Of a stretch of DNA of 64,000 nt, positions 5,704-61,939 are shown one piece after another. The stretch spans positions 73,532,001 through 73,596,000 of the forward strand of contig CM059430.1 in the NCBI GenBank assembly GCA_030390025.1, read 5' to 3'. The DNA comes from Squalus acanthias. Lineage: Eukaryota. Both the position numbers and the translations under genes were made by a program. Under the pieces are notes generated by a model. That model saw nothing but the letters and a program-made list of their open reading frames with translations, was not told the origin of the DNA and ran no database searches. The first letter of the stretch is position 1; each line of letters starts with the position of its first letter.

Positions 5704-8039
5704 GAAAAGTTGTAGAAAATATAAGGCTACGATATTAGCGTCAAAATGTTCTTTACTTGAGAGTGTGGGGAATTTTAAATTGCACAAAACCATTATGCAT
5801 GGTCGGTATTTAATCTTGTCAGCTTTCCATTCAATTTTATCCGTTCCCATCTGGCGCTACTAATTTCTTTCACAGCGCACTACTGTGTGATGGAATTACG
5901 GATATTAAATGAGCCCTTGCCTCTTCCAATGATTCCGCGCCCGTCCATGCTTGCTTACAAAATAAATCTGCAACTCTCAAGGTATCTGGCTCTGTAGTAA
6001 TTTCTTACCACTTGAGACTCACGCAATCCTCGATCGCTTTTGTCTCCTCCTTTTTTTCTCTCCAAAACTCTCTGGGACATTACAATATCAGCCCAAACTT
6101 TTAAGATGGGCTCAGATTCTGAGATTGCTTTACAGAGATTTATTAAGCAGAAACATTCTGAATTGCTTAAGCTTGTGTATAAAGACAGGAGTAAAAGGCC
6201 TCCCCTTTTAAATATTCGCTGTGATTTTGACAGCACTGAATGTGCACAGTCCTTTTAACACTGTGTTTTGCAGCTTGCAGCACTCACTTTCAGTTCATTT
6301 CACCAAAAAACAATTTGGATCCAGCGCTTTGCGCTCCTCTCTCTCGGTTCTGCTTTTGGATACATTTTAACTTCACTCTTTGAATTTGATGGAAAACATT
6401 GCAGATTCGTACTGATCTAAAATAAATCAGATTTATGATGCAAATTTCTGTGTGTCTTGCCATCTCCGACCAATTCATTTTATTCGACAGATCCACAATC
6501 CCGCAATTTTTTTTAAACCCAAAGCACTACCAACGATATATCCTTGGTCTCTCCTCTTCTTCTTTATCTGCAAGATACACTTTGGCAACTGCATCCACAG
6601 ACCTGGGGACAACTTCCAACCAGACACTGACAATATCCAATTCTGCTAGTCCACCCCGACGCTCCACTACCTGTATGATGTCATATCGCTTGTCCCCAAC
6701 TTCCAATCTTGAATGAATCTTAATTTCCTCCAGCTAAAGACCAATGTATATTTAGCGCTATTGGTGCAGATCAACTTGACTTCCAAATTCTTCTGTGACA
6801 TCTGTCTATCGCTGTATGATCGACTGAATTAAATAGCTCCTGGACAGTAGCGCAATATGCATACTCAAAAATCAGCAGGCGATTTCACATCCCACCAGAA
6901 ATAATTAATCATTGAATTTAAAGCTTGCAGATTAAAACATGCTACCACCTAAGGATACATTTACCACACCATTTGTATTTTAAATAGGATACCACATTCG
7001 TGTAGCTTTTCTTCTTCACGGCTGTGCAGAAAACGTCTGATTTTCATTCAAATGAATTCATCAGAATGGATATAAGACGCGTTCTATAAATGTGCGATCC
7101 CCCCCGCCAGAATTTCCGCTCTGCTGCTCCTCCCGACGATAATAAAGGCCCTCCGCCTCATTTATGTTTCCTTTCCGCGATGAAAAATGTATACCTGTAG
7201 CGCATTCCCACGATCCGTGATATGGATATGCTGATTATCTACGGTGATAATATTTGGCCGCATCTCTCGGCAGCTCTTTGATTGAACGATATATGCAGAC
7301 ATACTTGCAACAAATAAAATTGCCAGGAAATTTTCCGTAAGCTACGAAGCAAAGGCATTCCTTGCTGGCCCAAAGAAAGCTACACACAGAGCTCTTGCGA
7401 GCTCTATAGCGAGAAGTTTGCCTTTGTAATATAATGGGAAATCCCTGGATAACGCTTTTGTGACGTTATTGCAGAATTATTTTCGGAAGGTAACCAGGAA
7501 ATGAAGAAGCTGCCTTTATATGGGCTTTTAAAAATTGTTATAGAGAGCAAAACATGTTTGGGTCAATCACATGGGGAATGTTAAATCTGAAATAAATATG
7601 AACAAACTTTTCAAAATATATATATTTTCACATGTTCTTAAAAAAATATATTTGTTACGATAATGGAGAAATGTGTCACTCCACAAAATTAAAATTCATT
7701 TTTCAGGGCCATACTGTTTGTTTCGTGGTCAGTGCACTGCTAAAACCCTAATTACACCTAATGCAACAATTGCTAATTTTTAGAGGGGTAGTTAACAGAA
7801 ATATTACCGTGGAAAAGCTAACGTCTTTGTCAGATTCAATGATTACACTCATTGCCGCCTATAGAGGTGGGGGCACAGCGCAGCCAGTGTCAGAGCAGTG
7901 AAGGACTGACCGCAACTTCAGGATTTGCTTTTAGATGTGCATTCGCTACATCCAGAAGTTGCGATCAGCTTCAATAAGGTAATTACAGCGATCCCTGTTA
8001 GTTCCGCGTTATTACCCACAGCAACTCCAGGCCCTATGC

Positions 8040-10330
8040 TCCATTAACAGCCATCTCAGCTTCTGCTGCCACCTTCAAATATTTGTGTATATACATGCCA
8101 GGTCTGCCTGTTCCTGTAAACCATTTAAAATGTATCATTTATTTTGGATTGTCTCTCCTCATTCTTTGGACCAAAATGCATCACTTCACACTTGTCTGCA
8201 TGACTTTTAACCTGACATGTCTCTGCCCATTTCACTAGTCTGCTTATCTCCTTCCGAAATCGGTTACTATTATCGACATTGTCTGCTACAATTCGAAGGT
8301 TCGTTTCATTTGCAAACTTTGAAATTATGCCCGCTTTATCGAAGTCCGGGTCATTAATATATATGAAAAAGAGCAGTTTCCTAATACCGACCCCTGTGGA
8401 ACACTATTGATTTATTTACTCTTTATCATTGCTCTCCGTATCTGTCCCTTAGGAAGTTTTGTATCCACACTGTCACTGTCATTTCATTCCGTGGGCGTTT
8501 ACTTTGTTCATGCTTCTGGTATGTGGTACTTTATCAAATGACTTTTCAAAGTCCAGATGCACAACACAAACACACTAACTTCATCAACACATTCCATCAC
8601 TTCATAAAAGAAGTCGATTAAGTTCGTCAAGCATGATTTCCCTTCAATAAGCTATCCTTACTTGGAAGTACATCTTCGTTCCTTCATCGTCGCTGGGTCA
8701 AAATCCTGTTCTCCCTCCCTAACAGCACTGTGGGAGTACCTTCATCACACGGACTGCAGCGTTTCAGGAAGGCGGCTAACAACCGCATTCTCAAGGGCAA
8801 CAAGGAATGGGCAACAAATGCTGCCCTTGCCAGCGACGCCCACATACCATGAAAGAATGCAGAAAAATGAGTGCTGAATTTTATTTATTAGCCGATACCT
8901 TTTCAAACGCCAATTCAGTTTGTTCGGGATTACTGTCTTTAAAAGTTTCCCGACCAGCGAGGTTAGGCTAACTGGCCTGTAATGTCATGGTTGATACCTC
9001 TCCCCTTTTTTAAACAGTGGTGTAACGTTTGCAATACTCCAGTCCTCTGGCACTAACCTAAATCTAAGGAGACTTGCAAGATTGTGGCCAGGTCCTTCGA
9101 AATTTCCATCCTCCTTAGAATGCATCACATCCGAAACGAGTGACTTTTGTACTTTGAGGACTGCCCACCTTTTAATCCATTCTGTTTATCTCTTTTAATC
9201 CTACCCAATATCGCTGCTATTTTCTACGACAGTGCTACATTGCAGAATCCTCTTCTACAGTTAAGAAAGTTTAAAGTACTAATTTAATACCTCAGTCATG
9301 ATTTCTGCCTCCTCAGGAATATTTCCTCTTAGGCCGCTCATTTGTCTCACCCTTCCGCTGAATTACCTTTTACTACTGATATATTTATAAAATACATTCC
9401 TGTTCACTTTTAATTTAGCCGCTAATCTAAGGCCCAGAAATTAAACATCGATGGTTCCCGCAGGGGTAAGGATTCCCCGCGATATCGCACTCCGCGCTTA
9501 CCTTTTTGTTTGGGGCCCACATGAACTTTAGTTTCAGAGCCTCTCCCTGTTGCAACCATGCAGTGCTTGCGTTTCCCAGAGGCGCAATTGGTTCGTGAGA
9601 GCTCTGGGATCACGTGATTCAGTTAGAGCCAATGGCAGCACACCATCTTTAATTCAAAGTTTTGACAGCAAGGGCTGTCAAAGCTATGAATACTACAAAC
9701 CCCGAAAAGAACAGCTAAACCTCAATGAAATTTAAAATGAAACCATCACATTAATAAAATAAGTATAGTTAAATAAATTAACCACTTTATACAAAAAAAT
9801 AAATTTTTGAAAAAATTTAAAATCTTTTTAAAAGTTATAAAAATAAACTTACCTTTCTTTAACGTCTCTAAAAAAGATAAACCTGTTGAAAAAAATTTAA
9901 AATAACACTTAATTATCTACTTACCTTGTTAAAAGGGGGTCCTACGCCTGCTTTATTTATGTGTAAAATCTTCACCACTTACCTGCGCGTTCAAACCTGA
10001 AAAAAAACTAAGTGCACTGCGTGCGCACCACCTATAGCGTGCACGCGGTTCACTTAGGAACCGCTCCCTTAGCAATTCACGAAGTGCCGGTTTCCCGAGC
10101 ATGCGCAGTGCATGCAGGAAACCGGCAATTCGAGACCTAATACGCGAGAGTACACAGAGCGTACTCTCGCGTATTAGGTCTAATTTTCGTGCCATAGTCT
10201 ATTTTTTAGATCTCATCTACCCGCATCAACCCTCTCCATTTCTTCATGAAAGAACTCAGTCAAGTTAGTTAAATTCGATTTATCTTTATGAAATCCGTGC
10301 TGACTTTCATTTATTAGCCAATAGTTTTCG
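8040..10330 (-). mobile_element. Old CR1 RT fragment predating the duplication, interrupted by a short LINE tail (8660-8870) and a MITE
   Basis: Reverse-complement RT motifs; the uninterrupted paralogue is at about 59390-60700. Confidence 0.75.
9431..10193 (-). mobile_element. MITE family 1, inverted copy
   Basis: Reverse complement of 4288-5045; absent at the paralogous site near 60551. Confidence 0.85.
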
Positions 10331-12444: not shown

Positions 12445-12558
12445 TTCTAAATCTATGCAATTTAAAGAGTTTCACTATAGTGACCACCAACAGCAGAATT
12501 AACAGTCCAAGACCGAGCCGGAGAAACATGAACAAGAGTGGGAAGCCACGATCGATGT
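12445..12558 (-). CDS. Transmembrane exon of copy A (open, 114 nt, phase 1-1)
   Basis: Acceptor tattttgcAG, donor A|GTAAGT. Reads DIDRGFPLLFMFLRLGLGLLILLLVVTIVKLFKLHRFR: hydrophobic helix with one internal Arg followed by a basic stop-transfer segment. Confidence 0.85.
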
Positions 12559-13707
12559 CTGCAAAATACACAGAACTTTCATTAAAATCTAACCGATCAG
12601 TAGCAGGGGTTGCATTAATGATACAAGACTGGGATAATGAAAACTCACACTCGGAGTTCAAAGAGAGTGTAAGGATCCGATCGGAAAAAAAATCTATCAA
12701 ACCCGACGTGGTTGTCCTTGGTTCACGCCATTGCTTTTGCAGGGGGACAGTGAAACCCCCACAGAAATGGGAAAATGTCAAAATTGTGCCAGGCTGCGAA
12801 TGATCTTTCCCTTCAACTTCGGCGGGAGTTCGGCAGCATCCAAAGAGAATCTAGTTTAAATAGCCATGTTTAGTTCTCTACATTGTTTCTCTGATGTTTC
12901 GCTGTCTCACGTCCTACCTGCTGACACTAATCAGTGGAGCCCAATGCAAATGCAGGTCCATGGTCTGCCGATAACCTGTGTCTGTTGTCGTTGTATTAAC
13001 GTTACTCTCGCTCTTTATTTTCTTCTACTTCTGTGCCCTTCTATATCCCCTTTTGTTGTCTGTCCTGGAGATATTTTTGCTCTCACTCGGCCCTCTTCTG
13101 CATCCTTCTCTACATATATGCTCTATCAGTTGCTGTCGAATGTGATGGGTGACAGTGTATGTTGTGAAAAACATATATTAACCAGTGGATGAAGGATGCA
13201 CTTTGGATGACTTTACAGGGACACTCTGGCCCTCACGGGTTCCTTTCGCAACCTAACCCCAAATATTCATCCGCGCACATTTCAGTACTCTAACTTCTAC
13301 AATGTTTTAATTTTTCAACTACCACCTTTCCTTCTTATCACTCCTCACTCAGATCGACAATGCCCTACCTCTTCCTTATTGAAATATCCAGTCAGGCCCT
13401 AAGTAAACATGACCACTTGCTCCTCTGTCAGTTCCCTGACATATAACCCTACATCCTTTCCAGCTGTTCTGCACTCTAATTCAATCCTCCAGACTCTGCG
13501 CTGAGCGCACTGAGGCACCTTTACACTTTGCCGGTTTCCTTTCGACTACTGTGGTCTTCCTTTCCTATTCTTTCTTTCGAAGATGCTATGTTTGGTTTGA
13601 AAAGTTAAATTACTTTTGAAATAAATTAAGTCGGGAAGTGAGATGTTAAAAAATGACTTCTTCTCTCCCTATCTATGTCTCTGACACTAATTTTGACTTT
13701 CATCACT

Positions 13708-14404
13708 GGGCGTAAAATTGGCGATGGCGAATCGGGCGCCCGTTTTGCACCGCGCCCGTTCCTTTGTGCATTTGCTATTATAGTTAGCCAGGCGATTAGG
13801 TTTACAATGACGCACGGTCTCTATGACGTCGCACAAGTTAGCAGGTAGAATTTCTCTCTCGCAGATGTGAGAAATTGGCATTTACACTTCCTAACTGTTT
13901 TATTTTATATCTATGTGTATTTTGGGGGGCATTCCCATTCCTTCCCATTAATCTGCATATATGGAATCCCCACATGTATGAATGCGGATTCTCTTCTGTC
14001 ATTCGTTGGATGGCCCACGTGATGGCAGGGGAACTTGCGAACCGCGTGCCCATGAGCTATGTGGGTCTCTACCCGCGGGTACCCGGAGAGCCCCAGGACC
14101 GCGAGGCTCCGTGGACCCAACGGCCCCAGATACGTGGGCATTTTATTTTCGGATCGGAGGAATTTCCCTGCGGGAAGTCTCCGACGGAAAATTCAGGACC
14201 ATGACTTCAGTAAGTAAGGTTTTTATTAGACAGGAAATGAACAGACATGAGAGCCATGAATTACCTCGGAGCTGCCCCGCGCCCCACCCAACCTCCCGCC
14301 CGTCATCGCAACTTCCACTCTTACATCGACGAGTAATCAGTTTATTCCGAGGAGAAGCTCATAACCAGCTCTTGTCATACGCTCAAACTCAAAATTTTAC
14401 ACCG
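13708..14404. mobile_element. Decayed MITE-like element(s), possibly nested
   Basis: Outer ends gggcgtaaaatt / aattttacacc; an internal GC-rich segment ending ggaaaattcaggacc resembles the other MITE termini. Confidence 0.45.
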
Positions 14405-16054: not shown

Positions 16055-16361
16055 CTGAAATGTGCATAAGATGATGAACATTGGCTACAGTCTTGAGAGA
16101 GATGTGTGATACCTGACAAGTATAATTAGTTCCGCTCTGCAAAGGAGCTGTTTCATTGAGACTACTGGAAACTTCAAACATTTGCGCTGGATTCCGTTTT
16201 TTGATTTGTTCCGTGCCCGTCAGGATTTCCGATGCATTTTTATACCAACTGATGTTCAGCTTTTCCGCGAAAAACGAAGCCGTTTTAAACACAAGCGACA
16301 AAAAAAGACGATGACTCATTTCTAAACACGATAGTAGAAATCCGCAACGGCGTCGAAGCAA
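16055..16361 (-). pseudogene. Ig C1-set domain exon (disabled)
   Basis: Acceptor tttttcaacAG, donor CAG|GTAATT, phase 1-1. Reads (V)ASTPLRISTIVFRNESSS-[+1 T in T7 run near 16300]-LSLVFKTASFFAEKLNISWYKN...FEVSSSL...NYTCQVSHISL. Carries the C1 signature YxCxVxH; B-strand Cys position is Phe (TTT); five N-glycosylation sequons. Confidence 0.9.
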
Positions 16362-20868: not shown

Positions 20869-21115
20869 CATATACTACTAGTTATATGCCGCATCCGTCA
20901 ACAAACCCGAGTCTCCTACAATTAAATCTGCAGCGATAGACGCCAGAGTCATTGGCACTCACATTCTGAAGATGCAGAAAAAATATTCCATTCTGTAAAA
21001 TATGCAATTCGATGCGATTGTCGGAGGTTATTGCTACAATTGAAGTGGAACCTTCCTTCCTCCAATAAACATTTATATTCTCGTTCGGTTCGCTGTTCCA
21101 CTCCAGCAACTCTCA
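20869..21115 (-). pseudogene. Ig V-set domain exon with germline-joined J-like G strand (disabled)
   Basis: C-strand NINVYWRKEG, E-strand IFFLHLQNV, F-strand DSGVYRC, G-strand DGCGI*LVVY (GxGxxLxV with TAA), donor G|GTAAGT in phase 1. A-strand-like RVAGVEQR is in another frame. The exon is only 247 nt and lacks the B-strand Cys, implying a frameshifting internal deletion. 5' boundary uncertain. Confidence 0.85.
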
Positions 21116-50220: not shown

Positions 50221-51138
50221 CATGCTTTTATTCGGACGTTTAAAAATTGTTACAGACAGCAAAACATAAGTTGGGGCCCTCACATGGGCTAAGGTTAAAC
50301 CTGAAATAAATATGGACAAGAGTTTAAAAATGTATGTATTGCTAAATATTTAAAACATTATATTTGTTATTATAACGGGGAAATTTGTCACTCCAATAAA
50401 ATTAAGATTAGTTTTTCAGGATCTTAATATTTGTTGACGTATCAATACACTGTAAAACCCCAGTTGCAACTAATGCATCCAGACCTAATTTTCAGTGGGG
50501 TACTTAACAGTGATATTAAAGTGGTGAAAGCGCAAGTTTTCGTCAGTTTCACTGATATCACTGATTAAATTGATTGGCGGCTATAGCGGTATAGCGCAGC
50601 CAGTGTCGGAGCAGTGAATGACTGACCGCAATGTCAGGATTTCCGTTTAGATGCGCAGTCAGTTTCAAAAAGACAATAACAGCGAACACTGTTAGTTCCG
50701 CGTTACTACCCAACGCAAAACCCGGCCCTATGTTAAATGGCGATTTCCAAAACCTTCATGAAATGGAAATGTATGAGAACAAGTCTGCATAATGCAGTTA
50801 TAATTTTGGATTGGTGTTCCGGTAGAGACCACTGAAACAACCGGGGTAACTACAAACTTAACCCAGCTGTACAGGATGCGACTCTGCTAATTAATTAACT
50901 GCAGATGGAGTGCACAATTCAATCACGTGTACCGATCAGCTTTCGAATCGAATGGAAAACACTTTTGCTTCATCAAAGACTTTAAATTTAATTATTGTTT
51001 TATTGAAGCAATTCAATAACAAGACATAGAAGAATACTTTTCAAACAGCTGCAGAACGGTTTAGGCAAGGCTCAATAACAAGGAAAAAGATTTTCAAATT
51101 ACTCAAGTAAAATATTTAACATAATAAACTTTTTTAAC

Positions 51139-51144
51139 TTTATT
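51139..51144 (-). promoter_or_regulatory. Candidate polyadenylation signal AATAAA for copy B
   Basis: tttatt on the plus strand about 260 nt past the stop codon, in AT-rich unique sequence; a second candidate lies near 50999. Confidence 0.3.
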
Positions 51145-51403
51145 CCGGAAATTTTTTCATGAATCAAAGTATAACGTTTGGCAATATTTCAGAAAGGAGC
51201 TGGAGAAATTTTGAATGACTCGCTTCGTTCCAGTGTCCACAGCAGATTAGCGGAGATATTGTATCAACGGGAACAGATAGAGTGGCGCCTGACAACTATC
51301 TTCTACACCGATTATCACTTTTTTCTGAACCACTGGTACAGGAAATGTAAAAAAAGAGTTCTCTCTTTCCCTCGACTGACGCTCTCGATGATCAGCGACT
51401 TGC

Positions 51404-51595
51404 TCAGCGGAAGATTATATTTTCACATTTATTTGTAACATGACTGTTGGTTCCGACCACCCTTTTCTGTTTTTTGAACTGAACCTGCTCGTACACTATG
51501 GGCTCCTCTTGCCGTTTCGGTTTGGTATATGTCTTCTGACCGACGAAATCCAGCGCACAGTAAGTCAGCCTTTCTTCAGCTACCATTTGCGGAAC
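51404..51595 (-). CDS. Terminal cytoplasmic exon of copy B with two ITIMs (LTYCAL, IVYEQV)
   Basis: ctactacAG acceptor, phase 0, open to TGA: VPQMVAEERLTYCALDFVGQKTYTKPKRQEEPIVYEQVQFKKQKRVVGTNSHVTNKCENIIFR*. Both motifs match (I/V/L/S)xYxx(L/V). Confidence 0.85.
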   Translation of the reverse strand, partial: VPQMVAEERLTYCALDFVGQKTYTKPKRQEEPIVYEQVQFKKQKRVVGTNSHVTNKCENIIFR

Positions 51596-52006
51596 CTGTA
51601 GTAGTGTTCAGAAATAGCGTTAACATTCTGTCTTCAAAAGCCTGCGGATTGCTACCTCAATCAAACTGGGATATTACTGCATAGGATGAGGCAACTGCGA
51701 CCTGCGAGAACCGACCACAACTTCTCTCACCATCCTGAAGCTGCTCATGCATACACTGCTGCACCTCAAACCTGAGCCACGTTACCACATTCACCTGAAC
51801 ATACATGCCGATATATGTTATATATAGACGATTATGATAGTGAAATAACAACATAAACTTCAGCCACAAAAGATTCGTGTAAGTATGAAACACTTTCCAG
51901 CAGCAGAAGTATCGCTAAACAGATTTAAGGTAATTGGCAAAAGAGCCAGAGGTAAGGTGAGGACATTTTTTTTAACACAGTAAGTTATTATGACCTGGAA
52001 TTCATT

Positions 52007-52734
52007 GGCCCATATTTTCTGATCGCAGGTCTCCCGCGGGCGGAGGCCTGCGATCTGGAAAAATCTGAGCCCTTACCTGAGGCCTCCCGGGACGCGCACA
52101 GTTCCGATGCTGGGCCTCAACAAACGCCAAGTGCGCAGGGCCACGTATCCCAGAGGCGCATGCAGTTCGCAGCATCCCTGGGATCACGTGGGCCATGGGG
52201 AACCAATCACAGAAAGGAATCTCCCTTCATACATTTGATAGGAAGACCTGTCAAATATATGAATGGAGATCAATTAAAAAACATAGTAAAACTTGAAATA
52301 CATTTTTAGAAAAATCACATTTTTTAAATGACTTGAAATGACAATAAATTAAGTTTTATAAATAAAGTATTTTACGGGGCTAAAAATAAGCTTACCTTTT
52401 TTAAAAAGTATTTTTAAATGATAGATCAGTGTAAAAAATATTTTAAAAACTTTTATCTACTCTTATCCTGGTAAAAGCAAGCCTTACACCTGCTTTTACC
52501 AGGCGTAAACATTGTAAGGGTTTTCTGCGGGCGGAGGGTCTGCAAAAAGCTGAACTACCCACCCGCAGAAGCCCTTCTCCTTGGCAGGCGGAGGGTCTGT
52601 CAAGAGGATTCTTGACAGAGCGGAAATACCGGTTTTCAGCGTATGCGTTGTGCATGCCTGAAACCGGCATTTCCTTTGTCCTACGGGTGGGTGCACAGCG
52701 GGTAGCCACACATACTGCTCGGAATATCCGGCCC
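52007..52734. mobile_element. MITE family 2, copy nested in a CR1 3' fragment
   Basis: Ends ggcccatattttc / gaatatccggccc; splits the CR1 3' sequence at 51920-52935. Confidence 0.75.
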
Positions 52735-53364
52735 TTTATCTGAAGCAGTGGTGGAAGCAGAATGAATCGTACATTTCAAAAGGAAATTAACTATGCGCTT
52801 GAAAAGTAAAATACTATCAGGGTTGTGGAGAAAGAGAAAGGGAGTTTGAATAATTTAAAAGCTTTCCAAAGAGATGGCACAGGTACGATGGATCGAGTGG
52901 CCCACTTCTGTGTTGAAAGGTTCTATCATTCTATGATAAGCCTGTTAACAAGGAGAACATGCAGCGTCTAACATAAGTGTATTGCTCGATTGCAATACCA
53001 GTGTGAGACACCAAATAAGGTTAAGGGGATATTTAATCGCGGCTTTCAAGATCATAAAGGATTGTGTTAAAGTAAATAAGGAGATTTTCTTTCCACTGAG
53101 AGAATAATTGGTAACAGGAGGACACAGATATAAATTAATTCTCAAAAGAGCCATAGTTGAAATGATTAAAAAAACTTTTATGCAGCAAGTTATTATGATC
53201 TGGAATGCACTGCCTGAAAGAGTAGTGGGAAGAGATTCAATAGTAACTTTAAAAACGAATTTTAGTAAATACTTACTTTGGGAATATTTCAGGACTATGG
53301 GGAAACAGCAGAGTGAGACCAGTTACATCGCTCTTTCAAAGAGCCGACCAGGTAGGATGGACAA

Positions 53365-56300
53365 AATAAGAACATAGGAAATAGGAGCAGGAGTAGGCCA
53401 TTCGGCCCCTCGAGCATCCTCCGCCATTCAATAAGATCATGGCTGATCTGATCTTGGCCTCAACTGTAATTTCCTGCCTGCTCCCATAACCCTTTACTCC
53501 CCCGTTTTTCAAAAATCTGTCTATCTCCGTCTTGAATATATTCAAAGACTCAGCCTCCACAGCTTTCTGGGGTAGAGAATTCCAAAGATTCACGACCCTC
53601 TGAGAGTAGACATTCCTCTTCATCTCCGTTTTAAATGGGCTAACCTTTTTCTGAAACTATGCCCCCTCTTTCTAGAATCCTCCACGAGGGGAAACTTTCT
53701 CACAGCATGTAACCTGCCAAGCCCCCTCAGAATCTTATATGTTTCAATAAGATGATCTCATACATCTTAATTCGAATGAGTATAGGCCCAACCTGCTCAA
53801 CCTTTTCTCATACGACAACCCCATCAACTCAGGAATCGACCAAGTGAACCTTCTCTGAACTGTTTCCAATGCAAGTATATCCTTCCTTAAATAAGGAGAC
53901 CAAAACTGTATGTAGTACTCCAGGTGTGGTCTCACCAACGCCTTGTACAATTGTAGCAAGACTGTCCTACTTTTATACTCCATCGGCCTTGCAATAAAGG
54001 CCAACATTCCAATTGCCTTCCCAATTATTTGCTGTACCGGCATGCTAACTTTTTGTTTTTCATGTACGAGGACACCCAGATCCCTCTGTACCGCAGCATT
54101 CTGTAGTCTCTCACCGTTAAAATAATATTTTGATTTTTATTCTTCCTACCAAAGTGGATAACCTCACCTTTTCCCACATTACACTCCATCTGCCAGATTT
54201 TTGCCCACTCACTTAACCTATCTATATCCCTTTGCAGACTCTTTGTGTCCTCCTCACAACTTGCTTTCCCACCTATCTTTGAATAATCAGCAAAATTGGC
54301 AACAGTACGCTCGGTCCATTCATCCATGTCATTAATATAGATTGTAAATAATTAAGACACCAGCACTGATCCCTAGTTAAAGTTTGCCGACCTGAAAATG
54401 ACCCATTTATCCCGACACTCTGCTTTCTGTTAGTTGGCCATTGATCTATCCATTTTAATATATTACCCTCATTACCGTGAGCCCTTATCTTGTGCAGTAA
54501 CCTTTTGTGTGACACCTTATCGAATGCCTTCTGGAAATCGAAATAAACTGCATCTACTGGTTCCCCTTTATCCCCCACGGCTGGTTACATCCTCAACGAA
54601 CTCTAGTAGGTTTGGCAAAAAAGATTTTCATTTCATAAAACCATTTGACTCTGCTTGATTGTATTATGATTTTCTAAATGTACTGCTACTACTTCCATAA
54701 TAATGGATTCCAGCATTTTCCCAAAGACAGATGTTAGGCTTACTGTCCTATAGTTTGCTGTGTTCTGTCTCCCTCATTTCTTGAATAGAGGCGTTACAGT
54801 TGCGGTTTTTCAATCCGTTGGGACCTTTCCAGAATCCAGGGAATTTTGGTAGATTACAGCCGATGCATCCACTATCTCTGCAGCCACTTTGTTTAAGACC
54901 CTTGGATGCAGGCCTTCTGGTCCAGGGGTCTTGTCAGACTTTAGTCCGATTAGTTTGACTCGTACTTTTTCACTAGTGTTAGTGATTGTTTTAAGTTCCT
55001 CCTTCCCTTTTGCCCCTTGATTATCTACTATTATTGGGATGCTTTTAATGTCTTATACGGTGAAGAAAGATACAAAATATTTGTTCAATGTCTCTGCCAT
55101 TTCCCTGTTTTCATTATTAATTCCCCAGTCTCATGCTCTAAGGGACCAACGTTTACTTTAGCTACTCTCTTACATTTATATACATGCAGAAGCTCTAACT
55201 GTCTATTTTTTATTATTCTTGCCAGTTTACTCTCATAATCTATCTTCCTCATCTTTATTTCTTTTTAGTCATCCTTCGCTGGTTTCTAAAAATTTCCCAA
55301 TCCTCTGGCTTACCACTAATTTTTGCAACATTGTATGCCTTTTCTTTTAATTTGATACCATTCTTAACTTCCTTGGTTAGCCACGGCTGGTTCTTCCTTC
55401 TCGTAGAGTCTTTCCTTCTCACTGGAATATACCTTTGCTGAGAGTTATGAAATATGCCCTCAAATGTCTGCCACTGCTTATCTACTGTCTTACACTTTAA
55501 CATATTTCCCAGTCCTTTTTATCCAACCCTGTCTTCATACCTTTATTAATTGCCTTTATTTAAGTTTAAGACACTATTATTAGAGCCATGTTTCTCACCC
55601 TCAAACTGAATGGGAAATTCTATCATGCTATGATAACTCTTACCTAGAGGACCCTTTACTATGTGATCATTAATTAATCCTGCCTCATTACACATTCGCA
55701 GATCTAAAATAACCTGCTACCTGATTGTTTCCCGTCCACAACGTATTGTTCTAAGAAACCATCCTGAATACAGTCTATGAACTCGTACTCAATTGTACAT
55801 TTGCCAATTTGATAGTCTAAATGCAGAATAAAATCGCACATGATTATTACAGTACCTTTCTTACAAGTCCCCATTATTTCTTGATTTATACTCTGCCCTA
55901 TTGTGTAACTACTGTTTGGGGGCCTATAGAGTACTCCCACCAGTGGCTTCTTTCCCTTACTATTTCTTATTTCCACCCAAACAGATTCTCTATCTTGATC
56001 TTCCGAACCAATATAATTACTCACTACTGTACTGATGTCATCTTTTATTAACAGAGCCACCCCACTTCCTTTTCCTTGCTGCCTATTCTTCCGAAATGTT
56101 AAATACCGCTGAATATTCAGTTCCCAGCTTTGGTCTCCTTGCAAACACGTTTCTGTAATGGCTTTCAGATCATACCCATTTATATATATTTGTGCCGTCA
56201 ATTCATCTATTTTCTTACGAATGCTGCGTGCATTCAGATAAACAACCTTTAATGTTTTAAGATTATCCCCCTACTCTTAACAAATTTGCCAGTGCCGTCT

Positions 56301-56465
56301 TATTATTGTACTTTCTGTCCATTCCTGTCAGACTCTGGTTATCATTACCCCCATTCACTATCCTGCATTATTGTCTTGTCTTTCTCTTTAACTTTCGCAA
56401 TTCCCCCACCTGAATCCTACCCCTACTATTTAATTTAAAGCCCTGTCTACAGCCCTAGTTATTCG
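53365..56465 (-). mobile_element. CR1 LINE ORF2 in the intron between the two ITIM exons
   Basis: Endonuclease at 55704-56201, RT fragments, 3' end aagaacataggaa; an adjacent plus-strand 3' scrap at about 53010-53365. Confidence 0.9.
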
Positions 56466-57951
56466 ACGATTGGTCTCCTTCTGTTCTGTTAGTTTAAATG
56501 ATTCTATGTAATAATGTGATAAGTCTGTTAAAGACCACATGATGATTCTAACTGAAGTATATGTCGCGTATGCCATACCAGTGTGCAATAGCGGAGCTTG
56601 TCAGCTGTGGAATTGTTTATACATTTGGATTGATTTAATTCATTGCGCCTAGCGATTGCTTTATGAACAATATCCGGGTTACCGGCAGGGAAGATATATC
56701 ATTTAGCTCAAAATTGCGATCAAGCTGTGCTTCACACGGAGAGCTGGGAGTGTGAAAATATCAGACTTTTTCTCTCATTGGTGCCGAAGTCAACTTTCTC
56801 AAATCGGCATTAATAAGGCAATAATAGCCTCAAAATGGGGTTGGTAGTCTGACAGCCCTTATAAACAGAGTGGCTGGACAGAGCTTCTGTCTACTCAGGT
56901 GCTAGGTCCTTTTAAGATGCAAATCGTAGTCCTATAACGTACCCTTATTGTAATTTTAGGACCTAACAGTGTGGAACTTGTGCCCTGCACTCGCCAAACA
57001 CTTTTACTGGCTAAACTGCAAACGTTTCTCCAAAAAGGCCGGTAATTCTCCTGGGTCTATAAAAAGAATCTATGCCGCTGCTCCTCAAGCTTTCCGACTT
57101 CAGAATCGCAACCTCCACTCCTGGAATTACATTACTGCGCTGGGTATTTTCCGCCTACTCCTCTGATAATACACCATCCTGAATCCAGTCTAAATGCATC
57201 GAAATGTCCCTCTAGGGCGAGCAACGCGCCGCTTCTATTAAAATGAAGCGAAAGCATCAAAATGGCTCGGGGTTTAGTCCTGCCAGATTGCGCCGTCCGC
57301 TGACACAAAGGTTAAACTTTACCCCAAAGAGTGCACACACGAATATGCAGTAAATTGGTGTTGGATACAGTTGGAGAAGGCAATGTGTAATTTTTGTCTA
57401 AGTGCACGCCTGTCAGTTCAGTGTTTAAGACTCGCAAAATTATGTTAAACACACATCGGGACAAACGTAATTTAGTATTTTATCTTAACCATAGGTAAAA
57501 TGTAAATCTCACTGTGAATATACTATCCTATTCCCTTCATTATTTTACAAAAATAAAACCGGTTGGCGGTTTCCAATTGGCTTAATCTCCCTAATTGCTG
57601 ATCAGTCCATATTTTGGCATATGAGAGAGATGGTGTTTGGACACACGAACGATAACAGAATCGATGGGGGTGAACGTTGTAAAACTGTTGAAGTGTTACG
57701 ATGATATTGCGTTGTGGTGCAAGACGAATTTCAAGCTATAATTCTAAATCAACGGGGAGTAAATTGGTCTGGGGTGTACTCTTACTGTACAAGAATAGCA
57801 AGCTGTTACAACTAAGACAATCATTATTTACGTTGCAGATTGGGCGGCTACAAGCAATGTACGAAAAAAAAATACTTCAAACACACATTGGTTTACAAAT
57901 ATATGAAATTGTGTTACATATATATGGTATATATGCATGAAATAGTGTTAC

Positions 57952-58086
57952 CTTTAGATATGGAATTATCAATACCTCCGCGTGCTCTTCGTTCGTTTTC
58001 ATCTGCTTGGGGTTTGAACGCTTCTTCGGGTCAGTAAACTTCACAGTTCCATAGGTGAGTTGTTCATCTGTGACGCCTTCCTGAAC
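57952..58086 (-). CDS. Cytoplasmic exon 1 of copy B with ITIM LTYGTV
   Basis: gttgcAG acceptor, AAG|GTAACA donor, 135 nt, phase 0-0, open: VQEGVTDEQLTYGTVKFTDPKKRSNPKQMKTNEEHAEVLIIPYLK. Confidence 0.75.
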
Positions 58087-58171
58087 CTGCAACTCTACTT
58101 GCACAATGTTCATTATATTAAAGGACAGATTGAGATCGGTTGTAGAATTTAAATTGAATCGTGATTCTTAC

Positions 58172-58184
58172 CGGGGTTCCATTT
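58172..58184 (-). CDS. Candidate 13-nt micro-exon (phase 2-0, xNGTP)
   Basis: gaattttAG|AAATGGAACCCCG|GTAAGA, 85 nt upstream of the first ITIM exon; phase links the 38-nt exon to it. Confidence 0.4.
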
Positions 58185-58864
58185 CTAAAATTCAATAGTG
58201 TTTTATTTAATTGCTGTTCATAAATCGTGTTTATATACATTTGTACTTTGATACCCTCACATCGATGTAAGTTACACTTATTCTCAATGTAGAAATGCTG
58301 ATGACCCCCAACTAGAATGTTATATTTGTATTGGTAGCATAATGTAATTCAAAAATGCACATCTCTCTGTAGTGCCCGTATGTCTTTGACTATTCATTAA
58401 AAGGTCACGTTAACTCGCTCCCTGTTAGGTGCATTATTCGTCTAATTATGGAACAAACAGAAAAAGTTTTATTCTTTTGGACTGCTGCATGTAGATTATT
58501 TTCTCTGTCGCGAATTTCATTTTCAACAGTATAAGAGGAGGATTATACATCCGCACATGAAAACCCTCATCGGCCTGCCTGATTCTGTAACCTTCTCCAA
58601 CGTTGCAGCCTCTGAGTACTCTGTCTTTCTCCAACTATGACTTATTTTGCATCCCGTATTCATTAACCACATGGCTGACATCTGTGCCTTTAGCCCAATA
58701 ACCCGTAGCTCTGGAATTCAGTCATTCATCAATCGGCTTCTGCACCACCCTTTGCTCCTTTAAAACTATCCTTGAACCCGTCTCTTTGATCAAGGTTTTG
58801 GGAAGCTCTCTCATTATCTCCAACTTTTGCACCATGTCAATTCTTGACAGGCTAAGCTACTTTG

Positions 58865-60700
58865 AATCATAGAAACAAAGATTCATGCAGCACAGGATGA
58901 GGCCAGTTTGTCCATCGTGCCGGCTCTTTGGTAGAGCTATTTATTTAGTTCTACTCCCATCCTCTTTCCCATTACCCCTGTTATATTTTCCCTTTTATTG
59001 TTTGTCCAATTCCCTTTTGAAAGTTTCTGTTGAATTGGATTCCACCACCCTTTCAGTCAGTAGATTCCAGATCACAACAACTCGCTTGTTTCCTCATGGC
59101 GCCTCTGTTTCATTTGCTTATCACCATAAATCTATGCACTCTGATTACCGACCCTTCTGCCACTGGAATAGTTTCTGCTTATTTAGGGCATCAAAACCAT
59201 TCCTGACATTGAGCAGCTCTATCTTAATCTTCTCTGCTTCAAGGAGAACAACCACGCTTGTGCAGCCTCTCTAAGGCCTTGATATCCTTGCTAAAGTGTG
59301 CTGCCCAGAATTGAAAACATTACTCAGGCTGAGGCCTAACCAGTGTTTCATATAGGTTTAGCCCAACTTCCTTGCTTTTGTACTCTATGTCTTCTCAAAT
59401 TATGTTGGCACCTTCAACTATTTATCTTCAAGCACGCTAGGTCTCCACGCTCCTGTAACCATTTAAAATATATGATTTATTGTACACTACCTCTCCGCAT
59501 TCTTTGTACCAAAATATATCACTTCACACTTCTCTGCATGACATTTCATCTGCCATGTGTCTGCCCATTTCACTAGTCTGCTTATCTCCTCACGAATTCG
59601 GTTGCTATTATCGTCTTTGTTTGTTGCATTTCGGAGCTTCCTCTCATCTGCAGACTTTGAAATTATGCTCTGTTTTCGATTTCCAGGTCATTAATTTATA
59701 TCAAAAAAAGCAGTTGTCCTAATACCGACCCCTGGGGAACACCATTTTATTCTTCCCTCTGCAACTCTACCCTCTGCATTATGTCCCTTGGCCAGTTTCG
59801 TATCCACATTGCCATTGTCCCTTAAATTACATGGGCGTTAAATTTTTTAACAAGTCTAGTATGTGTTACTTTGTCAAATGCCTTTTGAAAATTCATATAC
59901 ACAACATCAACCACACAACACTCATCAATGCGTTCTATCACTTCATCAAAGAAGTCTATATATATCATCAGAAACGGTTTCCCTTTAACAAATCCGTGAT
60001 GATTTTTATTAGTCAATACATTTTTCAATGCCAATTCAGTTCGTCCGGGATTACAGTCTCTAAAAGTTTCCCCACCATAGATGTTAGGCTAACTGGCCTG
60101 TAATAACAGGGTTTATACCTCCCCCCTTTTTTAGACAGCGGTGTAACGTTTGCAATCCTCCTGTACTCTGGCACCACCCCACCTCTAAGGAGAATTTGGA
60201 GATTGTGGCCAAAGCCTTGACAATTTCCACCCTGACTAGACTGTCTCCCATCCGGACCCCGTGAATTTTCACCTGTGAGGACTGGCCACTTTTTAAGTAT
60301 CTTCTGTTTATGTATTTTAATCCTCCCCAATATCTCTGCTACATTCTCCGTTCGTGCTACATTGCAGCCTTCTCTTCTCCAGTGAAGAAACGTTAAATTT
60401 CGAATTTTATACCTCAGTCATGCCCTCTGATGGCACAGCAATTTTTCCTTTTTGGCCCCTCATCGGTCTCACCCTTCTGCTGACTTACCTATTACTACTG
60501 ATATATTTATAAACTGCATTTGTGTTCACTTTTAATTTAGCCGCTAATCTATTCACATAGTCTGTTTTTTAGTTCTCCTCTACCCTCATCAACCCTTTCC
60601 GTTTCTTCAACAAAGAACTCAGTCAAGTTAATTGGATACGATTTGCCTCTAAGAAATCAGTGCTGACTTTAATTTATTAGCCCACACTTTTCAAAAAGCT
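58865..60700 (-). mobile_element. Old CR1 RT/3' fragment (paralogue of 8040-10330)
   Basis: HGFVKGK..., VVYMNFQKAFDKV, YRPVSLTS. Confidence 0.8.
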
Positions 60701-61887: not shown

Positions 61888-61939
61888 CTCTAAATCTATG
61901 CAATTTAAATGTACAAGAGTGGAAAGCCACTGTCGATAT
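61888..61939 (-). pseudogene. TM exon remnant of copy B (62-nt internal deletion)
   Basis: Splice sites retained (tattttgcAG, AG|GTAAGA); 52 nt versus 114 nt in copy A; reads DIDSGFPLLYI* with the hydrophobic helix absent. Confidence 0.85.

What the first reader, a model, noticed from the sequence alone, without database searches (positions are those of the whole stretch)
8030..8060. Copy A lacks about 8.6 kb containing both ITIM exons
Seen: copy A matches copy B up to ggccctatg (8031-8039 vs 50724-50732) and resumes within a few tens of bases at the equivalent of about 59390, inside an old CR1. The missing interval holds exons 57952-58086 and 51404-51595. Inference: a single deletion stripped the inhibitory tail, a known route by which paired receptors switch sign. 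It may instead postdate pseudogenisation.
Basis: partly seen in the sequence, partly recalled or inferred. Interest (0 to 1): 0.7.

Follow-up and report, generated by a model that had tools for sequence, protein, structure and literature searches.

The report
Tail deletion in dead shark receptor
One broken copy in a shark immune-receptor gene cluster has lost the two exons for its "off-signal" tail, but that tail was likely already disabled in its ancestors, so this is likely ordinary gene decay; the likely "off-to-on" switch is older and was made by point mutations.

Summary
The deletion is real, private to copy A (1 junction match in the genome) and bridged by short-read contigs of one sample. 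It is a clean join at a shared TATG. Its size is about 4.8 kb, not 8.6 kb: B carries 3.8 kb of later insertions. It did not likely switch the receptor's sign. Both flanks place A inside an Arg-transmembrane subclade whose other copies already share a stop before the last-exon ITIMs (4 of 4 readable) and lack the first ITIM tyrosine (3 of 3). A is also dead by three other lesions (leader/V deletion, V stop, C1 frameshift), and B lacks 62 bp of its membrane exon. The more interesting lead is older: an Arg-plus-stop signalling half sits on three different ectodomains, as in activating KIR, but all 6 such copies are broken and selection tests are uninformative. The genes are non-rearranging V(J)-C1 receptors of cartilaginous fish. 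The scan noted a similar Arg/dead-copy pattern in another genome (e1-9541193), on DNA not matched to this.

The parts
8030..8053 (.). Deletion junction of copy A; last left base 8038; shared TATG (8035-8038), imperfectly CCC-TATG / CCCATATG; no filler
   Evidence: three sisters give the same two donors; 1 match in genome; bridging contigs
7470..8035 (.). Dispersed repeat whose end lies 0-4 bases from the left break
   Evidence: 2287 candidates, 40 scored; 16 of 16 fetched copies end their match at 8033-8038
8039..8650 (-). Old LINE reverse-transcriptase fragment holding the right break, shared with the paralogues
12445..12558 (-). Copy A membrane exon, open, AG/GT, Arg (CGG) where the Cys clade and P0019 have Cys; unspliced read-through would give a 7-residue end
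13500..13900 (.). Approximate recombination point: identity of A to the intact inhibitory copy C6:73397-73416 kb rises from 75-81% to 90-93%
16055..16361 (-). Copy A C1-set exon, 307 nt against 306, frameshifted
   Evidence: Pfam C1-set on the intact sister
20870..21087 (-). Remnant of copy A V(J) exon, stop codon at 20882-20884
21083..21088 (.). Second deletion in A, 496 bp, removes the leader exon with the start codon and the 5' third of V; short shared CGAA(C)
50733..59392 (.). Interval of copy B absent from A (8.66 kb, of which about 3.8 kb are insertions of B's lineage at 52008-52739 and 53362-56470)
51404..51595 (-). Copy B last exon, two ITIM-like motifs, open
57976..58094 (-). Copy B first tail exon (corrected limits), one ITIM-like motif, open
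61888..61939 (-). Copy B membrane exon remnant, 52 of 114 nt, frameshifted: B is not an intact inhibitory receptor either

Best explanation
Copy A is a broken shark immune-receptor gene that lost about 4.8 kb, with both tail exons, in one deletion joined at a four-base shared sequence; those exons were likely already signal-dead in its lineage, so the deletion likely did not switch the receptor from off to on. Shown: junction, size, privacy to A, A's other lesions, the shared tail lesions of its sisters, A's nesting among them. Inferred: repair of a double-strand break by microhomology-mediated end joining; inheritance of the tail lesions by A's ancestor (the interval itself is gone, so this rests on the two flanks); neutrality of the loss. 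Whether A was already dead when it happened is not resolved.
For: Same two donors ending in TATG in three sisters, no filler. One junction match in 3.7 Gb with 2 mismatches allowed. Left-flank and right-flank trees put A inside the Arg clade with lesion-bearing copies on both sides of its root (supports 98-100). Last-exon codon 7 is TAA in 4 of 4 Arg-clade copies where it survives and in 0 of 9 others; the first ITIM Tyr is lost in 3 of 3 against 1 of 9. A lacks leader and start codon, has a V stop and a C1 frameshift. Exon-removing deletions are common here: B membrane exon, C1 of the 73767-kb copy, first tail exon of the 73657-kb copy, part of the last exon of the 74160-kb copy. Only 2 of 15 membrane-exon-bearing copies have all six exons intact.
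Against: A's own tail exons cannot be read, and these genes are mosaics, so a conversion tract could have given A a working tail. A's membrane exon is the one exon left intact, with Arg and both splice sites, and would end 7 residues after the exon if unspliced, which is what a trimmed activating receptor looks like. The left break sits within 4 bases of a repeat end, which microhomology alone does not explain. Four shared bases are a short signal.
Confidence: 0.8

Rival explanations
1. The deletion converted a working inhibitory receptor into an activating one.
For: A keeps an open Arg membrane exon; in 70 database relatives Arg at or next to this column goes with short tails (15 of 15 at most 56 residues; 39 of 55 others at least 65; Fisher p 4e-7, proteins not independent).
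Against: Sisters' tails were already disabled; junction not found in any other copy; ectodomain dead.
Confidence: 0.04
2. The deletion fell while A was still a working Arg-type receptor and trimmed an already silent tail to a short read-through end; A died later.
For: Membrane exon intact; read-through gives a stop after 7 residues; AATAAA motifs exist in the remaining intron (first 2.1 kb on; such motifs are common by chance).
Against: All four lesions are private to A's terminal branch (about 0.045 substitutions per site) and cannot be ordered; pN/pS of A's C1 against its intact sister is 1.25, but intact pairs also give 0.84-0.95, so the test has no power.
Confidence: 0.1
3. The deletion was made by a transposase acting on the end of the repeat at 7470-8035 (adjacent deletion) rather than by microhomology repair.
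For: Break within 4 bases of the repeat end; a related-looking 763-bp element inserted in A alone at about 9430-10193, so such elements moved on this branch.
Against: The repeat is 76-79% like its family members, so old; the bases after the element end in the right donor are ATG, not the TTA/TAA seen after several family copies; the second deletion in A also shows a short shared sequence with no repeat end noted.
Confidence: 0.05
4. The junction is an assembly mis-join.
For: The bridging contigs come from one sample that may be the assembly's source; a second sample gave no bridging contig (about 55% of the run read).
Against: Separately assembled short-read contigs cross it: 7962-8072 with 0 differences (X1, X2) and 7955-8136 with 2 (X3, X4); both flanks are equally diverged from the same sisters (91-93% left, 92% right); two junction-adjacent bases differ from all sisters.
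Confidence: 0.01

Closest known systems
Activating short-tailed KIR (KIR2DS/3DS) and Ly49; Abi-Rached and Parham 2005, PMC2213150 (abstract and sections 5, 6 read)
   Same: Charged membrane residue plus a stop in the tail arise on one stem branch; the signalling half is then recombined onto different ectodomains; activating forms are short-lived.
   Different: Here Arg replaces Cys near the outer end of the membrane segment (KIR: Lys, DAP12); V-C1 ectodomain; no intact activating copy in this assembly; no purifying selection shown; the deletion in A is not the switch.
Non-rearranging VJ-C1 IgSF genes (PRARP, UrIg, NKp30) as discussed in PMC10751288 (passages read; Fu 2019 and Ohta 2019 seen only in its reference list)
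   Same: Unsplit V exon ending in a J-like G-x-G strand, followed by a C1-set exon.
   Different: Large tandem family with ITIM tails; V lacks the usual first cysteine; orthology and synteny not tested.
NCBI-annotated cartilaginous-fish 'SIRP-alpha-like / SIRP-beta-1-like / tapasin-related-like' proteins, nearest XP_067905014.1 (Heterodontus francisci, P0019)
   Same: Leader, C1, membrane exon and both tail exons match in order and frame (64-68% identity on tail exons of one copy).
   Different: Names are automatic; P0019's model has no V; one C1 domain rather than the two recalled for mammalian SIRP.
Paired-receptor ectodomain homogenisation (KLRC, KLRI, PIR); PMC3210942 (passages read)
   Same: Ectodomains shared across forms with opposite signalling halves; membrane Arg marks the activating forms.
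   Different: In this cluster the Arg forms are all broken, so a functioning pair is not shown.

Membership tests
Functional activating receptor (copy A) | Open reading frame from leader to membrane segment | tested here: not met
   496-bp leader/V deletion, V stop, C1 frameshift
Functional activating receptor (copy A) | Charged residue in the membrane segment | tested here: met
   Arg, CGG, in an open exon
Functional activating receptor (copy A) | No ITIM | tested here: met
   Both tail exons absent
Sign switch by tail deletion | Tail was functional before the deletion | tested here: not met
   Shared stop (4 of 4) and Tyr loss (3 of 3) in the clade that contains A; inferred from flanks
Paired inhibitory/activating receptor family | Intact ITIM-bearing members | tested here: met
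   2 of 15 copies, C6:73397-73416 kb and 73858-73883 kb
Paired inhibitory/activating receptor family | Intact charged-residue, ITIM-less member in the same subfamily | tested here: not met
   0 of 6 Arg-clade membrane-exon copies intact; such proteins exist in the wider family of other sharks and rays
Paired inhibitory/activating receptor family | Near-identical ectodomains on opposite signalling halves | tested here: met
   A groups with the intact Ser/ITIM copy on C1 (support 100); two other Arg copies group with Cys/ITIM copies
Paired inhibitory/activating receptor family | ITAM adaptor of the FcR-gamma/CD3-zeta type encoded in the genome | tested here: met
   2 matches to PF11628 over the cut-off
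Paired inhibitory/activating receptor family | Adaptor binding and opposite signalling | not testable with these tools
   needs cell assays
Non-rearranging VJ-C1 genes (PRARP/UrIg type) | Unsplit V exon with J-like strand, then C1-set | tested here: met
   Pfam V-set 30.1 bits (cut-off 26) and C1-set 44.1 bits (cut-off 21); G-x-G strand in the V exon (J-likeness of the motif is recalled)
Non-rearranging VJ-C1 genes (PRARP/UrIg type) | Orthology or synteny with PRARP or UrIg | not tested
   primary papers not held
SIRP | V plus two C1 domains (recalled) | tested here: not met
   one C1 exon per gene found in all copies examined
Microhomology-mediated deletion | Short shared sequence at both donors, kept once, no filler | tested here: met
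   TATG in three sisters

The most novel reading that the evidence does not exclude
In this shark an inhibitory V(J)-C1 receptor switched sign by point mutation (membrane Cys to Arg, ITIM Tyr to Cys, stop early in the last exon), its activating half was spread by recombination onto at least three ectodomains, and every such copy was then lost: the full birth, spread and death cycle proposed for activating KIR and Ly49, recorded in an undescribed cartilaginous-fish family of more than a hundred V/C1 exons on one chromosome. Copy A's deletion is a late scar in that cycle.
Probability: 0.4. Interest if true: 0.55.

Novelty: new member of a known kind. Interest (0 to 1): 0.3.

Why it matters
The deletion itself is ordinary decay in a birth-and-death gene cluster and should not be cited as a sign switch. 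The surrounding pattern matters more: if the Arg clade's ancestor worked, the KIR-type route from inhibitory to activating receptor (charged residue plus tail stop, then recombination, then loss) also ran in sharks, on an antigen-receptor-like V(J)-C1 scaffold. Six literature searches listed no paper whose title or abstract start describes this cluster, but most subscription journals are outside the library and two key papers could not be read.

Tried and rejected
1) A 32-nt third tail exon near window 58475-58510, proposed to fix a frame mismatch: rejected; its donor is GT in only 5 of 12 copies and P0019 shows the mismatch came from wrong exon limits. 2) 'Lost donors' of the first tail exon in A-like copies: an artefact of the same wrong limit. 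3) pN/pS as a test of function: uninformative; Arg-clade membrane exon 1.00, intact-versus-intact pairs 0.84-0.95. Branch-wise counts on A's own lineage were not obtained, so the time of A's death stays open. 4) First count of membrane charge was too crude; a single alignment column caught 1 Arg protein because most sit one column earlier; the count used both columns, a choice made after seeing the alignment; P0009 (isoform) and P0147 (antibody-like) and proteins over 520 residues or without a detected membrane segment were left out. 5) No RNA holder listed; RNA-labelled run X11 laid nothing: no evidence on expression. 6) Second DNA sample X5 did not bridge the junction (partial read): no evidence either way. 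7) Pfam found nothing in the short frame at 8128-8403; the LINE call rests on tblastn with RVT_1-positive frames. 8) Ohta 2019 was not held. 9) Earlier findings by place and by sequence: none. No supplements were opened.

Full report
Setting. The window is G000:C6:73532001-73596000 of a 3.7-Gb genome. That it is a shark is inferred from the nearest proteins, all from cartilaginous fish. It holds two minus-strand copies of a gene built leader, V(J), C1, membrane exon, two tail exons. Pfam gives V-set and C1-set for an intact neighbour. A protein search found 136 V or C1 matches, 131 of them on C6 between 57 and 77 Mb (136 of 629 candidates scored). The subfamily of A and B has 15 membrane-exon-bearing copies in the stretches fetched.

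The observation. The self-comparison shows A 7511-8038 against B 50223-50732 and A 8054-8650 against B 59393-59991. Neither tail exon has a homologue in A's intron, between A and B, or in 28 kb downstream. Twelve copies including B keep the first tail exon, as does the Heterodontus protein P0019, so the event is a loss in A. Against its three nearest sisters with the interval intact the gap is 5761, 6475 and 6714 bp, of which 4.6-4.9 kb is shared; B's 8.66 kb includes two insertions absent from those sisters. In all three sisters the left donor ends in ATG (TATG in two, AATG in one) and the right donor in CCCATATG, and A keeps TATG once with no filler. A junction pattern with two mismatches allowed matches once in the genome. 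Contigs of four runs from one sample cross it with 0 or 2 differences; a second sample, partly read, does not cover it. P0019 also corrects the first tail exon to 57976-58094, which restores the frame from the membrane exon and has AG/GT in 11 of 12 copies.

State of the two genes. A has lost 496 bp holding the leader exon and the first third of V, has a stop in the V remnant and one extra base in C1. Its membrane exon is intact and carries Arg. B has open tail exons but only 52 of 114 nt of its membrane exon. So the pair in the window is two broken genes. Only 2 of 15 copies have all six exons intact, and both carry ITIMs.

What the deletion removed. Trees of the left flank (1541 columns) and right flank (2778 columns) both put A inside a clade apart from B's, nested with lesion-bearing copies on both sides of the clade's root (supports 98-100). 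In that clade the membrane codon is CGG where readable, codon 7 of the last exon is a stop in 4 of 4 copies where it survives (0 of 9 elsewhere), and the first ITIM tyrosine is Cys, Ser or Cys in 3 of 3 (lost in 1 of 9 elsewhere). One of the four (74042 kb) is placed in the clade by its flank only. The simplest reading is that A inherited a tail of about 55 residues with no ITIM, and that the deletion removed exons that no longer signalled. This is an inference from flanks in a mosaic cluster.

Mechanism. Best: end joining at a four-base microhomology after a break; A's second deletion has a similar short shared sequence, and at least four other copies show exon-removing deletions. Against a purely random break, the left end lies within 4 bases of the end of a dispersed repeat; I could not tie this to a transposase, as the repeat is old and the new neighbour does not look like its usual flanks.

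The older signal. The Arg signalling half is joined to three ectodomain types: A groups on C1 with the intact Ser/ITIM gene (support 100), two Arg copies group with the Cys/ITIM genes, and one stands apart; identity switches in the intron between membrane exon and C1. Among 70 database relatives, all 15 with Arg at or next to this column have tails of at most 56 residues and none has two ITIMs, while 39 of the other 55 have tails of 65 or more (proteins not independent, some models may be truncated, alignment ambiguous by one column). An FcR-gamma/CD3-zeta-type adaptor family matches twice in the genome. This is the pattern Abi-Rached and Parham describe for activating KIR: charged residue and tail stop on one branch, spread by recombination, short life (PMC2213150, abstract and sections 5 and 6 read). 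Against it: all 6 Arg-clade copies are broken, though 7 of the 9 others are too; pN/pS on their membrane exon is 1.00; a distant broken copy has Arg (CGT) with intact ITIMs while its near twin has Cys, so Arg can arise by one transition; and unequal crossing-over makes chimeras without selection. I put the working-ancestor reading at 0.4.

Comparison with known systems. It works like a decayed member of a paired-receptor cluster. Copy A is not an activating receptor (no open frame). The family is a non-rearranging VJ-C1 type in the sense used in PMC10751288 (passages read); membership in PRARP or UrIg was not tested, and the SIRP-like names are automatic NCBI labels. PMC3210942 (passages) documents shared ectodomains and membrane Arg in mammalian pairs. 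PMC12227049 (passages) concerns UrIg2 and did not bear on this. Searches listed no description of this cluster.

Verdict. Real, private, about 4.8 kb, likely neutral; not the sign switch. Interest 0.3, carried mostly by the older Arg-plus-stop clade.

Noticed in passing
window 61888-61939 (-): Copy B's membrane exon lacks 62 bp (shared AT at the ends) and runs into a stop; leader, V and C1 read open, so a secreted V-C1 product is conceivable.
   Followed up: partly
window 21083-21088: Second deletion in A, 496 bp, removes leader and 5' V; private among the four closest V sisters.
   Followed up: yes
window 7470-8035: Left break coincides with the end of an abundant dispersed repeat with GGCCC-type ends (resemblance to Harbinger-type MITEs is recalled, not tested).
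   Followed up: partly
window 9430-10193: A 763-bp element with inverted ends present in A and absent at this site in its sisters.
   Followed up: partly
G000:C6 57.5-76.9 Mb: 131 of 136 V/C1 matches to a family protein lie on this one chromosome region: a very large V(J)-C1 receptor family, known here only by automatic names.
   Followed up: no
L003:3463-3780 (-) and all V exons: V domains lack the usual first cysteine; most have an extra Cys in the J-like strand, and the distant copies lack the second Cys as well.
   Followed up: no
window about 58475-58510: A 32-nt intronic patch conserved even in the most distant copies; not an exon (donor not conserved); role unknown.
   Followed up: partly
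G000:C6:73720-73780 kb (L013-L018): Interleaved half-genes: an Arg-type 3' half, a Cys-type 3' half, then an Arg-type gene lacking C1 and its own tail exons through a different break.
   Followed up: partly
G000:C6:72.48, 72.55 and 73.00 Mb (L052, L055, L058): Leader-V-C1 units, two of them open, with no matching membrane exon found in the 12-13 kb fetched downstream.
   Followed up: no
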